The position numbers were made by a program. A DNA stretch of 64,000 nt. It comes from Trypanosoma brucei (taxonomy: Eukaryota). Every line of letters starts with the position of its first letter. Positions within the stretch are counted from its first letter, which is position 1. This document shows positions 18,567 through 27,500 of this stretch, piece after piece. The stretch is from assembly GCA_000002445.1 (NCBI GenBank), contig CP000071.1, positions 512,001 to 576,000 on the forward strand. Reading direction: 5' to 3'.

Positions 18567-21500
18567 TTGTATATCGGCCTTTTATCTTTCATTTATTTGC
18601 GGATTGACTGGCCTTAACCCCCCGACCTCGATACCCAATTCTTTCCCTCCTAAATAAATTTGCATTCGAATGCACAAGTAATTACACCTTGAAACGTCTG
18701 TCGGTGTTGCTGCTGTTGGTACACGCAAAAATTATAGTGGAAAATACGCTTGTTTGTGTATTGGACAGTTTCTGTTTCACTTTTTTTTTTTGTTGACTAT
18801 CAAATGCTACTCTTTTTTTCTTCTTTCTTCTTTTTTTTTTCCTCATTCATGCAAGCCACTGCTTCTGCCTCCTCTGTTTCGCCACACGTCCAGCTATTAT
18901 CAGTATCTCATATGTGGCAGGAAAAGAGAGGAGAGGGAAGATTGGATAAGTTAGTTTTTCTAAAAATTCCCTTGGTTGTAGGTTAAGATAAATGTTGCAG
19001 CCGGTTTATTTGTTGGGGAGATGCGTATACGTATGTGTATATGTTTGGCTGCTTGTGCGTTGGAGTGGCTCCCGTGCAGCTCTTCCATTATCTATTCATT
19101 AACACATAGCGGTCATACGGTAGCGATGTGAGTTTTGGAGGAAATTAAACACTTCGGTAGAGGGGGAGTTAGTTTCTGTCATATGTGGATTTGTGTATTT
19201 TTTTTTTTTTTGAGACCTGAAGTTGAGGTTCGTACCTTGCAATTTTACTCATTGGCGCCAACCTCTCTTTTTTTTTTACCCTCACCGTTGCTACTGATAG
19301 TGGTGGTCTTCTTTACTATTGGCAACGTTGCCATTCACAAACCACGGTTCTACCTTTGTACAGTAGGAAAAGGAAAAAAAAAACAAGAGAATATACGCGC
19401 GCAAGAGACGATGTCGGCTGTGGAGGAGCTCCGAGCTCAAATCGATGCGCTCGCGTCGCAGATCTCTGCGGTTAAAAAGGAACAGGGCGCCTCTAGTGAG
19501 GCGTGCAAATCCCTTGTGGCTAAAATGACTGAACTTCGAAAGCAACTTCCTCAAGAAAAGAAGGAAAAGAAAGCGGAGAAGGCCCCGGAGATCAGTTACT
19601 ACGATACACGTCTCGCAATGGTGAAAGAAATGGGCCCTCTCGGTGCCGCCTACCCTCATAAGTTCCACCGAGACTACACCTTACCCGCCTTCCGAGAGTG
19701 TTTCAAGCCAATGTTGCAGGAAAAGGGTCAACGCCTCGATAAGGTCGTGACGATTGCCGGACGTATCGTCGTGAAGAGAAGCTCGAGCTCCAAACTGCAT
19801 TTTTTGGCTCTTCAGGGTGATGGGGAGGTACTGCAGGTTATATCCATGGCGAGTGACTACGTTAATGATGGTTTTGCGGACATTCACAGCAAGATCAAGC
19901 GTGGCGATATCATTGGTGTGCGAGGTGTGCCATCGTTTTCAAACACGGGGGAGTTCTCCATGAGTGCCTACGAAATCACGCTGCTCTCCACATGTTTTCA
20001 CATGTTGCCAGATGAGCATTACGGGCTGAGCTCAGTCGAACAGCGCTTCCGTCAGCGATACCTCGACCTGATTGTGAATCGAGAAAACGCGAAGACTTTT
20101 ATCCTCCGCTCCAAGATCATAAGCTACATCCGCAGTTTCTTTGACCAGAAGGACTTCCTAGAGGTGGAAACGCCCATGTTGAACCAGATCGCCGGTGGTG
20201 CTGCTGCGCGGCCTTTTATCACACACCACAATGAGCTCAACCAGACAATGTACCTGCGAATTGCACCGGAGTTGTACCTAAAAAAACTTGTTGTTGGTGG
20301 CTTGGATCGTGTATATGAGATCGGCAAACAGTTCCGCAACGAAGGTATCGATCTCACGCATAATCCGGAGTTCACGAGTGTGGAGAGTTATTGGGCGTAC
20401 GCAGACTACAATGATTGGATGGAGACCACTGAGGAGTTACTTTACGGTATGGTCATGCATCTTTACGGATCTCCTATTGTGAAGTACTCCCCGAGGGATT
20501 CAGAGGGCCGTCAGTTACCTGAGGTAACTTTTAACTTCAACAGGCCCTTCAAACGCCTGCACATTGTTCCGAAGTTGGAGGAGATACTAGGACTTAAATT
20601 CCCTGCTGATTTCTATTCCTCTGAGGCAAACAGTTTCTTTCTGGACATTTGCAAGAAGAACCAGGTTGAGTGCAATCCCCCCTTCACAACGACACGCCTA
20701 CTAGATGCGCTTGTCTCCCACTATCTTGAGCCACAGTGCCACGACCCGACATTTCTGTGCGACCACCCGCGTATAATGTCTCCGTTGGCAAAGTGGCACC
20801 GTAAAGACCTTCGGCTCAGCGAGCGCTTCGAGCTGTTTATTAACAAAAAAGAGATCTGCAATTCATATACGGAGTTAAACAGTCCCCTCGTGCAGCGAGA
20901 GGAGTTTGAAAGGCAACTGCGTGACCGCGAGAAGGGTGATGACGAGGCAATGGATATTGATGAGGGTTATGTACAAGCATTGGAATACGCGTTGCCTCCC
21001 ACTGGTGGTTGGGGTTTGGGTATTGATCGACTCGTCATGTATCTCACAAGCCAAAACAACATCAAGGAAGTCCTTCTATTTCCAGCTATGAAACCTGAAG
21101 GGACATCCTCTGCCACATTCCCACCAGGAACAATGTTGAATGGACAAGGGGTGCCACTTCTTTGAAGGGTCTCAGGCACTACACGCGAGACAAATAGGCA
21201 GCTGAGCAACATGCAAAGGAAAAAAAAAGGTAAGACAGAACGGAGGATCACAAATGAAAAAGCATTAATCCCTACGAAAAACAACACAGCATGATTTAAA
21301 AAAAAAACAGAATTCGGATGGCGTAATAAATTACACATTTCAGGAGCAGTGTTAACATAATGTCAATTCTATTCGGTTACTGATGCAGTAAATTATACCA
21401 CTCTCTTTCTGCAGCGAATACGTGCTATCTCTCTGTTCAATTAACCTTCTTTTTTCCTTGCTCTTCCCTCTGCAACAGTGAGGCTCGCAGATGTTTATGT

Positions 21501-24500: not shown

Positions 24501-27500
24501 ATGATCTTTGACTACACATGATGAGCAGCAAAGAAAGGGAATCTCTTGTCGAGCTCAGGGAATGAATCCCAGTGGCGGTGACATGACAAACTTTGATATT
24601 ACTATAATCCATTCTATTCTGTTACTGATGCAGTAAATTATACCACCCTCTTTCTGCAGCGAATACGTGCTATCTCTCTGTTCAATTAACCTTCTTTTTT
24701 CCTTGTTCTTCCCTCTGCAACAGTGAGGCTCGCAGATGTTTATGTTCCTTTGAACCCTTGTGAGACTGTTGGGTCCCTTGATGATTGTGGCAACTCTCCA
24801 CGGAACTTATCTGACAAAATTTGCCTACGAACCTATTACCAAGGCTGAGGTCTCTACAGTACCCTTGCTTTAAGCTCTGTGTGTGATGTATATACGACTA
24901 TGAACAACTCGTCAGAGTGCTATCTTTGATGATCACATACATTTTGCTTCCTCACTGACAACATACCTGCATTTGCAATCACTCCTGTAAGCATACATTT
25001 TTTGGCTCCTCTTTCTATTTCTTGAAACTCTATGCTCGATTGCTCGGCGACTCCACGGTGATGTTCAATACAATAACTGATGTAACATTATTGTTTTCTC
25101 TCTTCCCCTTGTTCCTCCCATGTGTCAAAAGGAAGCGGTTGATGATGCTACCGGCGTGTGTAATCCCGATGCATGGCGCATTGAAACTCGCCATACTGCT
25201 GATGTTGGTATGGTGCTGTTCCTTGTGTCTCGCGAAGTCAGGTGGCCGCTGCATGTTCGATGAAATTGCGGCGAAAGCTGGACGTCCACGGGTTTTGGCG
25301 CTGCGAAGGACTAAAGCAGGCATGGAGAATGTAAAGTATGACAGGACAGGTTCCGTTGACCCTGAGTGGCAGCACATCCGTATTGTTGTTTTCGCAGAAG
25401 ACATGAAGGACCGGTCGCGATATTGCACGTCTGCAGGGCAGGAACGACCAACGTTTTTCGGAGAAACAGCGACATGTTCACAAGAAGACATTTTGACAGC
25501 CGCTAAGAGAGATATTGCCGTCACGAAGCTTCTTCCTTCAGCTGTCCAGATGCATATGGATAGGTTACTCGTCGACCCTATAACTGAACCCCTTGTCTTT
25601 CCTCCATTTGATGGTTCGGTGTGCTCTGAGTTCAAAGTACCGTCAAGTCATTTCTCAGAGGGCGTACCTGACGCTGATATGGTAATGTATGCTGCAGCGG
25701 GTCCAACGCCGGAGGGTGTGGCTGCCTGGGCTACGGGTTGCATAACTCTTGACGATGGGCGTGCTGTGGCTGGCGTAACTAACCTTGGCCCCGGTTCCAT
25801 TAGCCTGTCGGAGACCAGCATTCGCACAGCTGCTCATGAGATTGCCCACGCCCTTGGGTTCGATTTCGAAGCGATGAACGATGCCGGTATGGTGCAAAGA
25901 ATTCCCGGTGTTCGTGGAAAGGTTGATGTGACACTCATTTCGTCACCCAGGACACTGCAGAAGGCCCGCGAACACTACAATTGTCCCGATGCCCCTGGAA
26001 TGGAACTGGAGGACGAAGGTGGTAGTGGCACCGCATTATCACACTGGGAGCGGCGCAATGCGAAGGATGAGATCATGTCTGGTATTTCTTCACCTGGTCG
26101 ATACACAGCGCTAACGATGGCGGCGTTTGAGGATCTGGGATATTACCGTGGTGCCTGGGGGAGCGAAGAACCTATGGGTTGGGGAAACAACTCTGGTTGT
26201 GAGCTACTCAACGAAAGCTGTTTGGTGAACGGTGTGACAGCGCACCCGGATATGTTCTGCAACGAAACCGTGAGCAAGCTGGTTTGTAACTCGGAGCGAG
26301 ATGGTCTTGGAAGGTGTAATGTAATTAAGCATGAAAATCCACTTCCACCGCAATACCATTACTTTTCTGATCCTTCACGTGGTGCCCCCTCCCATCTCTT
26401 GATGGACTACTGCCCGTCCATTGACGCGTTCTCCAACACGCCTTGTGCCGACGGCGAAACGAAATTCATGCGTGGAAGTTTGATAGGACCGTCGTCAATG
26501 TGTCTGAAGGCCGAGGGACTCCGTGACAGTCAGGGCGTCATTGGCGATGTTTGTGCGGATGTGCGGTGTGATGGTGGTGAAGTAAGCATTCGTTATCTTG
26601 GGGATGATGCATGGCATCCGTGCCCAGAAGGCAGTCACATCAAACCGACTACAACATTCACGGATGGCGTCATTGTTTGCCCGACTTACAGTGAGGTTTG
26701 TATCAAAGCAACAGTGGTTGTACGCCCTTCTTCAGCCAGCTACCGTTCTTCAGTGCCGCAATCGCTGCTTCTCACCCTATTCGCTATAGTTTATGCTGCC
26801 TGTTAAATGGCGTGACTATAGGTGTGGGGTTAAGCATCCGTTACTGTCCTTGGATGTTGCGTCAGAAATGGTTACTACATGCGATACGCAGGTTTTCCTT
26901 TTATACGAGTATTTTCCATTACCACTTTGCAAGGTTGTTGTATTCCTTTCTTTTGTCTTTGTACACGTTTTTTTTAAATACTTTGTTTATTATACGCACA
27001 GAACCCTATGACTCCAGAGGTTGTATGGGGAGAATGTGTGTGCGAGCGTTATCGTCTGTTATTTCTTAGTCCAGTTGTCTGCGTTCTCACGGCAGAATCG
27101 TGGCAGCAGCGGGCACCTAAACGATTTTAGGCCGCCACGTCGCGGTTTTCTGTATTGTTTTGTTGATTTCCTATTTAGAAACTCCCTGTAGATAATGTTT
27201 ACCTTTTTTTTTCCATTGTCCTCTTATCTACCTATATGTTAACAACACACTTCCGTTGTTGCATTTCACCACGGGTTTCGGGCGCTTATTCTCTCTTCCC
27301 CTTGTTCCTCCCATGTATCAAAAGGAAGCGGTTGATGATGCTACCGGCGTGTGTAATCCCGATGCATGGCGCATTGAAACTCGCCATACTGCTGATGTTG
27401 GTATGGTGCTGTTCCTTGTGTCTCGCGAAGTCAGGTGGCCGCTGCATGTTCGATGAAATTGCGGCGAAAGCTGGACGTCCACGGGTTTTGGCGCTGCGAA

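What the first reader, a model, noticed from the sequence alone, without database searches (positions are those of the whole stretch)
21361..25141. 649-bp x 5.7 tandem repeat whose last partial unit forms the 5' flank of the first MSP-B gene
Five and a bit essentially identical 649-bp units fill the interval between LysRS and the metalloprotease array. The sixth unit is cut at ~25086, where the conserved MSP-B 5' flank starts (ttctctcttccccttgttcctccc…). So MSP-B copy 1 has a different upstream region, and probably a different 5' UTR and trans-splice site, from copies 2-4. The repeat has no plausible sense-strand ORF. Each unit carries two perfect UGAUGA (C-box-like) and several CUGA motifs (e.g. 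cacaTGATGAgcagc … ttaCTGAtgcag ~105 nt apart), so a second small-RNA cluster is possible but not convincing by eye. Alternatively it is an expanded UTR/intergenic satellite that could affect the processing or abundance of the first MSP-B mRNA.
Basis: seen in the sequence. Interest (0 to 1): 0.55.

Follow-up and report, generated by a model that had tools for sequence, protein, structure and literature searches.

The report
Known trypanosome snoRNA gene array TB8Cs1
The 649-bp tandem repeat is the already published Trypanosoma brucei chromosome 8 snoRNA cluster TB8Cs1, four small C/D-box RNAs per unit that guide ribosomal RNA methylation and aid rRNA processing, so it is real and functional but ordinary.

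Summary
The repeat is real. It runs from 21363 to 25085, 5.74 units of 649 bp, with only three variable positions among full units. It is not an anonymous satellite. Eight published primers and probes for the T. brucei snoRNAs TB8Cs1C1 and TB8Cs1C3 match every unit exactly. Gene coordinates published for TREU927 place the window at chromosome 8, 512001-576000. Each unit carries four C/D-box snoRNA genes on the + strand, in the order C4, C1, C2, C3. All four are reported as abundant small RNAs. C1 and C3 are experimentally shown to guide rRNA 2'-O-methylation and to be needed for large-subunit rRNA processing. The same four-gene array lies directly downstream of LysRS in T. vivax, T. cruzi and T. 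melophagium. There the snoRNA blocks are conserved (50% invariant) and the spacers are not (6%). Its other inference, a different 5' UTR and trans-splice site for MSP-B copy 1, is not supported. The published 5'-most spliced-leader site of copy 1 (window 25132) lies in the 47-nt flank shared by all copies, 10 nt before the real ATG (25142). Verdict: already known, low interest.

The parts
21363..25085 (+). Tandem array of the snoRNA cluster TB8Cs1: 5.74 units of 649 bp. Corresponds to Tb927_08_v4 533363-537085.
   Evidence: Lag-649 identity. Published primers match each unit. Coordinate offset of 512000.
21363..21386 (+). 3' fragment of TB8Cs1C3 (D box CTGA at 21380-21383) that opens the array. 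Slightly degenerate; similarity starts at about 21357 with a 2-nt indel. Probably not a functional gene.
21526..21609 (+). TB8Cs1C4, copy 1 of 6. The others are at 22175-22258, 22824-22907, 23473-23556, 24122-24205 and 24771-24854. C box 21534-21539, internal CUGA 21566-21569, D box 21600-21603. The assignment to 'C4' is by elimination and gene order; the ends are approximate.
   Evidence: Weak C/D-like Rfam alignment. Boxes. Six identical copies. 57% invariant across four Trypanosoma species. C4 is listed as an abundant C/D snoRNA.
21634..21716 (+). TB8Cs1C1, copy 1 of 6. The others are at 22283-22365, 22932-23014, 23581-23663, 24230-24312 and 24879-24961. C box UGAUGU 21639-21644, D' CAGA 21668-21671, C' UGAUGA 21682-21687, D box 21710-21713.
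   Evidence: Published northern probe primers match exactly at 21634 and 21697. The D guide pairs over 12 bp with the kinetoplastid SSU sequence GAGGAAGCAAAA.
21809..21882 (+). TB8Cs1C2, copy 1 of 5 full copies. The others are at 22458-22531, 23107-23180, 23756-23829 and 24405-24478. C box UGAUGU 21814-21819, D' CUGA 21832-21835, D box 21876-21879. The ends are approximate, and the name is assigned from its position between C1 and C3.
   Evidence: C2 is listed as an expressed C/D snoRNA.
21918..22035 (+). TB8Cs1C3, copy 1 of 5 full copies. The others are at 22567-22684, 23216-23333, 23865-23982 and 24514-24631. C box 21923-21928, D' UCGA 21953-21956, D box 22029-22032.
   Evidence: Published probe primers match at 21918 and 22016. 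The D' guide AGGGAAUCUC pairs with LSU-beta 587-596, putting A588 at the fifth position. A second block, UAAUCCAUUC, pairs with the adjacent rRNA segment.
25054..25085 (+). Truncated sixth copy of TB8Cs1C2 (C box, first guide and D' box only; no D box). It ends the array and is probably non-functional. The ORF start of Tb927.8.1610 in GeneDB v4 (window 25061) lies inside its C box.
22094..22127 (+). Polypyrimidine tract followed by AG in the C3-C4 spacer, present in every unit (first copy 21445-21478). Predicted spliced-leader acceptor for the pre-snoRNA transcripts. This is an inference.
   Evidence: Sequence. Kolev 2010 reports that snoRNA precursors carry SL and poly(A).
21166..21382 (+). 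LysRS 3' UTR. The published 3'-most poly(A) site, 533382, is window 21382, which is the first 20 nt of the array.
   Evidence: Kolev 2010, Table S3.
25095..25141 (+). The 47-nt flank shared by all four MSP-B copies: polypyrimidine tract, AG at 25130-25131, published SL-addition site at 25132, and a 10-nt 5' UTR before the ATG at 25142.

Best explanation
The repeat is the tandemly reiterated snoRNA gene cluster TB8Cs1 of Trypanosoma brucei chromosome 8.

Anatomy. Each 649-bp unit encodes four box C/D snoRNAs on the + strand, in the order C4, C1, C2, C3. The spacers between them are not conserved.

Biogenesis (established for trypanosome snoRNA clusters, inferred for this one). The array is read through by RNA polymerase II as part of the same polycistronic unit as LysRS and MSP-B. 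The transcript is cut into spliced-leader-capped, polyadenylated pre-snoRNAs, probably at the polypyrimidine/AG signal in each C3-C4 spacer. These are trimmed to mature snoRNAs of about 75-120 nt that assemble with the methyltransferase NOP1/fibrillarin.

Function (published). The snoRNAs base-pair with rRNA and direct 2'-O-methylation of the nucleotide opposite the fifth position upstream of box D or D'. The reported targets are C1 to LSU-alpha Gm1709 plus an SSU G, C2 to SSU A125, and C3 to LSU-beta A588/590. Silencing C1 or C3 also causes LSU precursors to accumulate and srRNA1 to fall.

Tandem repetition (inferred). It provides gene dosage for abundant RNAs, and the copies are kept identical by concerted evolution.

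Relation to MSP-B. The array is only a neighbour of MSP-B. It ends inside a C2 copy, 10 nt before the splice signal that all MSP-B copies share.
For: Identity: eight published primers for TB8Cs1C1 and TB8Cs1C3 (Chikne et al. 2019, PMC6411936, Table S1) match exactly, in the right orientation, in every unit. Published TREU927 v4 coordinates of LysRS and the four MSP-B ORFs equal window coordinates plus 512000. Rfam finds the neighbouring chromosome 8 snoRNAs TB8Cs4H2 and TB8Cs2H1 in the same window.

Composition: the snoRNA list of the same paper gives exactly C1-C4 for this cluster. All four are expressed, and C4 is in the 96th-99th percentile. Four C/D-type box sets are present per unit.

Conservation: the same C4-C1-C2-C3 array follows LysRS in T. 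vivax, T. cruzi (about 11.8 units of 541 bp) and T. melophagium (about 8 units of 745 bp). 179 of 359 snoRNA positions are invariant against 18 of 281 spacer positions, Fisher p = 5e-36.

Guides: the C3 D' guide pairs with LSU-beta 587-596 with A588 at position 5. The C1 D guide pairs over 12 bp with the SSU 3' region of kinetoplastid rDNA contigs.

Function: methylation loss and processing defects after snoRNAi of C1 and C3, and the Nm assignments in PMC9283944.

Biogenesis: snoRNA precursors carry SL and poly(A) (Kolev 2010; Michaeli 2012). The LysRS poly(A) site lies at the array start and the MSP-B SL site just after its end.
Against: Nothing contradicts the identification. The gaps are as follows.

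The names C2 and C4 were assigned by position and elimination, not by a published sequence, because Liang et al. 2005 is not held.

I could not verify the rRNA targets of C2, C4 and the C1 D' guide. Only chance-level matches turned up in non-brucei kinetoplastid rDNA.

The published label SSU_2227 for C1 does not fit the position I derive from primer numbering, about 2189. Numbering also differs by 2 between papers for C3: Am590 against 588.

Rfam holds no model for these C/D families, so no gathering-level hit exists.

The copy number of 5.74 is that of this assembly and may be collapsed or expanded.
Confidence: 0.97

Rival explanations
1. The repeat is a non-coding intergenic or UTR satellite whose main effect is on MSP-B copy 1. 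It would give that copy a distinct 5' UTR and trans-splice site and so a different mRNA abundance.
For: Copy 1 does have different DNA upstream of position 25095 than copies 2-4. It also lacks their second upstream polypyrimidine tract at 27199-27233.
Against: The 5'-most mapped SL site of copy 1 (window 25132) is inside the shared flank. It is equivalent to the sites of copies 3 and 4. No AG occurs between the last repeat spacer and that site. The mRNAs are therefore predicted to be identical from the SL onward. The repeat's conserved content is four expressed snoRNAs. Caveat: SL reads cannot be assigned uniquely among identical copies.
Confidence: 0.02
2. The array is a relic. Only some units, or only some of the four blocks, still give functional snoRNAs, and the rest are pseudogenes kept by homogenisation.
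For: The two end copies are clearly truncated: a C3 3' fragment at 21363-21386 and a C2 5' fragment at 25054-25085. I found no verified methylation target for C4.
Against: All full copies of all four snoRNAs are 100% identical. All four are abundant RNAs. All four blocks are conserved across species that diverged long ago.
Confidence: 0.05
3. The repeat number is an assembly artefact, and the true locus has a different number of units.
For: Contigs of T. equiperdum, T. theileri, T. conorhini and T. rangeli all stop 0.4-0.8 kb after LysRS, so assemblers fail at this array. The T. vivax assembly shows only about 1.3 units.
Against: This concerns only the count, not the nature of the element. The window has unit-specific SNPs in an alternating pattern, which argues against simple collapse.
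Confidence: 0.3

Closest known systems
T. brucei snoRNA cluster TB8Cs1 (Liang et al. 2005, RNA 11:619; functional work in Chikne et al. 2019, NAR 47:2609)
   Same: It is this locus. The published C1 and C3 probes and primers match exactly, the chromosome 8 position fits, and the membership is four C/D snoRNAs (C1-C4).
   Different: Nothing substantive. This work adds the exact array boundaries, which cut through C3 and C2. It also adds the synteny with LysRS across Trypanosoma and the relation to the MSP-B splice site.
Other reiterated trypanosomatid snoRNA clusters, such as TB8Cs2 in this same window (378-bp units at 37763-39025) and the clusters of Leptomonas collosoma and Leishmania major
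   Same: All are tandemly repeated units of several snoRNA genes on the coding strand. All are transcribed polycistronically by Pol II and processed from SL/poly(A) precursors.
   Different: Most clusters mix C/D and single-hairpin H/ACA-like (AGA box) snoRNAs. TB8Cs1 contains only C/D snoRNAs. The Leishmania donovani LysRS locus lacks this cluster.
Polycistronic snoRNA clusters of plants and yeast (for example snR72-78)
   Same: Several snoRNAs are released from one precursor by endo- and exonucleolytic processing.
   Different: Those clusters are not embedded in a trans-spliced polycistronic mRNA unit and are not usually amplified as near-identical tandem units.

Membership tests
TB8Cs1 cluster of T. 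brucei | Sequence identity to the published TB8Cs1C1 and TB8Cs1C3 probes and primers | tested here: met
   All 8 primers (20 nt each) match exactly and in the correct orientation in each unit.
TB8Cs1 cluster of T. brucei | Location on chromosome 8 between Tb927.8.1600 (LysRS) and Tb927.8.1610 (MSP-B) | tested here: met
   Published v4 coordinates of five genes equal window coordinates plus 512000. Pfam confirms LysRS and leishmanolysin.
TB8Cs1 cluster of T. brucei | Four C/D members (C1-C4) and no H/ACA member | tested here: met
   The published list gives C1-C4 only. There are four conserved C/D-type blocks per unit and no other conserved block. Rfam finds no H/ACA hit in the array. The sequences of C2 and C4 themselves were not compared with a published sequence.
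Box C/D snoRNA | C box (RUGAUGA) near the 5' end and D box (CUGA) near the 3' end, with internal C'/D' boxes | tested here: met
   The boxes are located in all four genes. They are invariant or nearly so in four species.
Box C/D snoRNA | Short terminal stem joining the 5' and 3' ends | tested here: inconclusive
   By eye, C4 can form 5 of 6 pairs and C1 only about 2 bp. No systematic fold was run. Trypanosomatid C/D snoRNAs are known to have very short stems (own knowledge).
Box C/D snoRNA | Antisense element of 10 nt or more pairing with rRNA, so that the target nucleotide faces position 5 upstream of D or D' | tested here: met
   Met for C3 D' (10 bp, LSU-beta A588) and for C1 D (12 bp, a G in GAGGAAGCAAAA of the SSU 3' region). 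It could not be tested for C2, C4 and C1 D', because no T. brucei rRNA sequence was available.
Box C/D snoRNA | Stable small RNA bound by NOP1/fibrillarin, with loss of the guided Nm on depletion | not testable with these tools
   Published: RPKM values for C1-C4, northern blots, snoRNAi and Nm loss for C1 and C3, and NOP1-dependent Nm at the assigned sites.
mRNA untranslated region (LysRS 3' UTR or MSP-B 5' UTR) | Lies between the mapped SL site and the poly(A) site of a protein-coding mRNA | tested here: not met
   The LysRS 3'-most poly(A) site is at window 21382. The MSP-B copy 1 5'-most SL site is at 25132. The body of the array lies between the two mRNAs.

The most novel reading that the evidence does not exclude
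TB8Cs1C4 is the most conserved block of the unit (57% invariant across four Trypanosoma species) and one of the most abundant snoRNAs in the cell, yet it has no 2'-O-methylation target in the Nm table I could read. Its conserved stretches are also out of register with its D and D' boxes. It could be a trypanosome-specific C/D snoRNA that acts in pre-rRNA folding or processing, or on a non-rRNA target, rather than as a methylation guide. I could not see the full snoRNA-target literature (Liang 2005; Rajan 2020), so a target may already be published.
Probability: 0.2. Interest if true: 0.3.

Novelty: already known. Interest (0 to 1): 0.08.

Why it matters
The finding adds little beyond correct annotation. 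It shows that a large 'satellite' next to a surface-protease gene family is a housekeeping snoRNA gene array. It corrects the idea that the array changes the first MSP-B mRNA. It also explains why an old gene model of Tb927.8.1610 started inside repeat sequence: the annotated ATG lies in the C box of a truncated snoRNA copy.

The comparative result may be useful as a marker for snoRNA-cluster evolution and for checking assembly quality. The same four-gene array sits behind LysRS in salivarian and stercorarian trypanosomes, with about 1.3 to 12 units, and assemblies break there.

Tried and rejected
TRF found nothing because its period limit is 500; the repeat finder and a lag scan replaced it.

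The Rfam gathering-threshold scan gave no hit in the array. The permissive scan gave only sub-threshold human SNORD look-alikes. These were useful as a hint of C/D architecture but are not evidence.

Liang et al. 2005 (PMC1370750) is not held. The supplements of Michaeli 2012 are not held. Two other papers' supplements lacked TB8Cs1 entries.

The exact look-up of the window's LysRS failed. The window protein differs at two residues from the T. equiperdum representative.

The Leishmania donovani LysRS locus has no homologous cluster.

I searched for targets of C2, C4 and the C1 D' guide in three metagenomic kinetoplastid rDNA contigs. This gave only 10-11 bp matches with G-U pairs, the same level as many chance hits, so I make no claim from them.

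I considered and rejected a protein-coding reading. There is no ORF of 120 aa or more, and the ORFs called through the T. melophagium array are artefacts.

I considered whether Kolev's missing transcript numbers Tb8.NT.24-29 are the six unit-length precursors. This could not be checked.
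Full report
**Observation.** A self-comparison at a lag of 649 nt gives 98-100% identity from 21363 to 24436, against about 25% in the flanks. The array therefore covers 21363-25085, which is 3723 bp or 5.74 units. Tandem Repeats Finder missed it only because its longest period is 500. 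Full units differ at just three positions, all outside the snoRNA sequences described below. The array ends at 25085. After a unique 9-10 nt junction, the sequence shared with the upstream regions of MSP-B copies 2-4 starts at 25095/25096. No ORF of 120 aa or more lies in the array on either strand. LysRS (19411-21165) and a leishmanolysin-family protein (25142-26806) flank it. There are three TGATGA motifs per unit, not two. The stated end coordinate, 25141, includes 56 nt that are not repeat.

**What it is.** An Rfam scan of the window found the T. brucei chromosome 8 snoRNAs TB8Cs4H2 (1208-1277) and four copies of TB8Cs2H1 (37817-39012), but nothing in the array. A permissive scan gave only sub-threshold C/D-like alignments. 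The literature search was decisive. Supplementary Table S1 of Chikne et al. 2019 (PMC6411936) lists silencing and northern primers for TB8Cs1C1 and TB8Cs1C3. All eight 20-mers match exactly, with the expected orientation, once in every unit. This delimits C1 at 21634-21716 and C3 at 21918-22035 in the first unit. Table S2 of the same paper lists exactly four members of this cluster, C1 to C4. All are C/D snoRNAs and all are expressed, with C4 in the 96th-99th percentile of two libraries.

- The two remaining C/D-type box sets in the unit are at 21526-21609 and about 21809-21882.
- The first has C box UGAUGA, an internal CUGA and a D box CUGA. The second has UGAUGU, a D' CUGA and a D CUGA.
- I assign these to C4 and C2 respectively, from gene order. 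That assignment is an inference.
- The array contains six C4, six C1, five C2 and five C3 genes, all identical within each type.
- It also contains a C3 3' fragment at the start (21363-21386) and a C2 5' fragment at the end (25054-25085).

**Genomic identity.** Kolev et al. 2010 (PMC2936537, Tables S1 and S3) give GeneDB v4 coordinates for Tb927.8.1600 (531411-533165) and Tb927.8.1610-1640. All equal the window ORF coordinates plus exactly 512000. The window is therefore T. brucei TREU927 chromosome 8, 512001-576000, and the array is at 533363-537085. A T. equiperdum contig is 98.8-99.96% identical over its aligned pieces and stops inside the array.

**Comparative evidence.** I used LysRS orthologues to fetch loci.

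- The same four snoRNAs, in the same cyclic order, lie directly downstream of LysRS in three further species.
- T. vivax has a period of 549 and about 1.3 units in the assembly.
- T. cruzi has a period of about 541 and about 11.8 units.
- T. melophagium has a period of about 745 and about 8 units, and its array also opens with a C3 3' fragment.
- The cluster is absent from the Leishmania donovani LysRS locus.

In a four-species alignment of one unit, 179 of 359 positions inside the four snoRNAs are invariant, against 18 of 281 in the spacers. The Fisher p value is 5e-36. The boxes and the guide segments are the conserved parts. This is the footprint expected of four functional small RNA genes separated by free-drifting spacers.

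**How it works.** Two guide-target pairings could be checked with tool results.

- C3: a published primer gives LSU-beta 579-603 as GGAUUAAUGAGAUUCCCUCUGUCCC. The C3 segment AGGGAAUCUC, followed by UUG and a degenerate D' box UCGA, pairs with 587-596. This puts A588 opposite position 5, in agreement with the published target LSUb_588, called Am590. A second conserved C3 block, UAAUCCAUUC, pairs with the adjacent rRNA segment. This looks like the accessory pairing known for some C/D snoRNAs, but that is an inference.
- C1: the invariant segment UUUUGCUUCCUC, one nucleotide upstream of the D box, pairs over 12 bp with GAGGAAGCAAAA. That sequence lies about 50 nt from the 3' end of kinetoplastid SSU rRNA, in rDNA contigs fetched from metagenomes. 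The target is a G, as published. The published label SSU_2227 does not fit the roughly 2189 that I derive from primer numbering, and I leave that discrepancy unresolved.

Published experiments provide the function.

- Silencing C1 lowers LSU-alpha Gm1709. Silencing C3 lowers the LSU-beta Am.
- Both treatments cause accumulation of LSU precursors and loss of srRNA1.
- C2 is assigned to SSU A125.

For biogenesis, trypanosome snoRNA genes are co-oriented with neighbouring protein genes and transcribed by Pol II. They are made from precursors that carry a spliced leader and a poly(A) tail. This locus fits that picture.

- The 3'-most LysRS poly(A) site (window 21382) is at the first 20 nt of the array.
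- Each C3-C4 spacer carries a strong polypyrimidine tract followed by AG, first at 21445-21478.
- Unit-length SL/poly(A) pre-snoRNAs are therefore likely, but I did not see site data for the array itself.

- Kolev's Table S1 lists all four MSP-B ORFs as having misannotated start codons. It gives the 5'-most SL site of copy 1 at 537132, which is window 25132.
- That site follows the first AG (25130-25131) after the shared polypyrimidine tract. It lies 10 nt before the in-frame ATG at 25142, which opens a signal-peptide-like sequence.
- Copies 3 and 4 use exactly equivalent positions. Copy 2 has a 5'-most site 9 nt upstream.
- The mature mRNAs are therefore predicted to be identical, and the inference is not supported.
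- One caveat applies: reads cannot be assigned uniquely among identical copies.
- The old v4 start codon of Tb927.8.1610 (window 25061) is the ATG inside the C box of the truncated C2 copy.

**Comparison and novelty.** This is the cluster named TB8Cs1 by Liang et al. 2005 and studied functionally in 2019. Tandem reiteration of snoRNA clusters is the rule in trypanosomatids. It is unusual only in containing no H/ACA-like member. The finding is already known. The one loose end is C4: it is very abundant and the most conserved block, but I found no assigned Nm target in the table I could read. Its conserved segments are out of register with its D and D' boxes. I could not see the full target literature, so I rate the chance of a genuinely non-canonical role as low.

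**Verdict.** The small-RNA interpretation is right, and the MSP-B UTR interpretation is wrong. The element is already known, and interest is about 0.08.

Noticed in passing
window 25054-25141: The GeneDB v4 start codon of Tb927.8.1610 (window 25061) is the ATG inside the C box (GUGAUGU) of the truncated last TB8Cs1C2 copy. The mapped SL site (25132) shows that the real start is 25142, so the first 27 annotated codons were snoRNA-repeat sequence.
   Followed up: yes
window 37763-39025: A second snoRNA array (TB8Cs2) with a 378-bp period. Rfam finds four copies of TB8Cs2H1 at 37817, 38195, 38573 and 38951.
   Followed up: partly
window 1118-1754: The H/ACA-like snoRNA TB8Cs4H2 (1208-1277) lies inside Kolev's 'new transcript' Tb8.NT.22 (513118-513754). 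That transcript is therefore probably its SL/poly(A) precursor.
   Followed up: no
window 34659-36434: The ORF after the fourth MSP-B copy is a major-facilitator-type transporter (Pfam MFS_1, Nodulin-like), not a fifth protease copy.
   Followed up: yes
L001, L003, L008, L009 (ends of contigs): The assemblies of T. equiperdum, T. theileri, T. conorhini and T. rangeli all break 0.4-0.8 kb downstream of LysRS. This is consistent with the same unresolved snoRNA array in each.
   Followed up: partly
L007 12433-18307: The T. melophagium annotation calls a periodic series of 81-179 aa ORFs with no Pfam hits through its TB8Cs1-homologous array. These are almost certainly spurious gene models.
   Followed up: partly
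window 21918-22035 (TB8Cs1C3): C3 has two conserved blocks that pair with adjacent segments of LSU-beta (about 575-584 and 587-596). Only the second block is in register with a D' box. The first may be accessory base-pairing.
   Followed up: partly
Kolev 2010 new-transcript table; window 19260-33905: The new-transcript numbering skips Tb8.NT.24 to Tb8.NT.29 between 531259 and 545906. That is six numbers where the array has six units, and they may have been snoRNA precursor transcripts removed from the table. Not verified.
   Followed up: no
window 4817-17731: A single 4304-aa ORF lies upstream of LysRS. It is conserved in position in T. equiperdum, T. theileri, T. melophagium and T. rangeli, and the fetched loci record no Pfam hit for it.
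   Followed up: no
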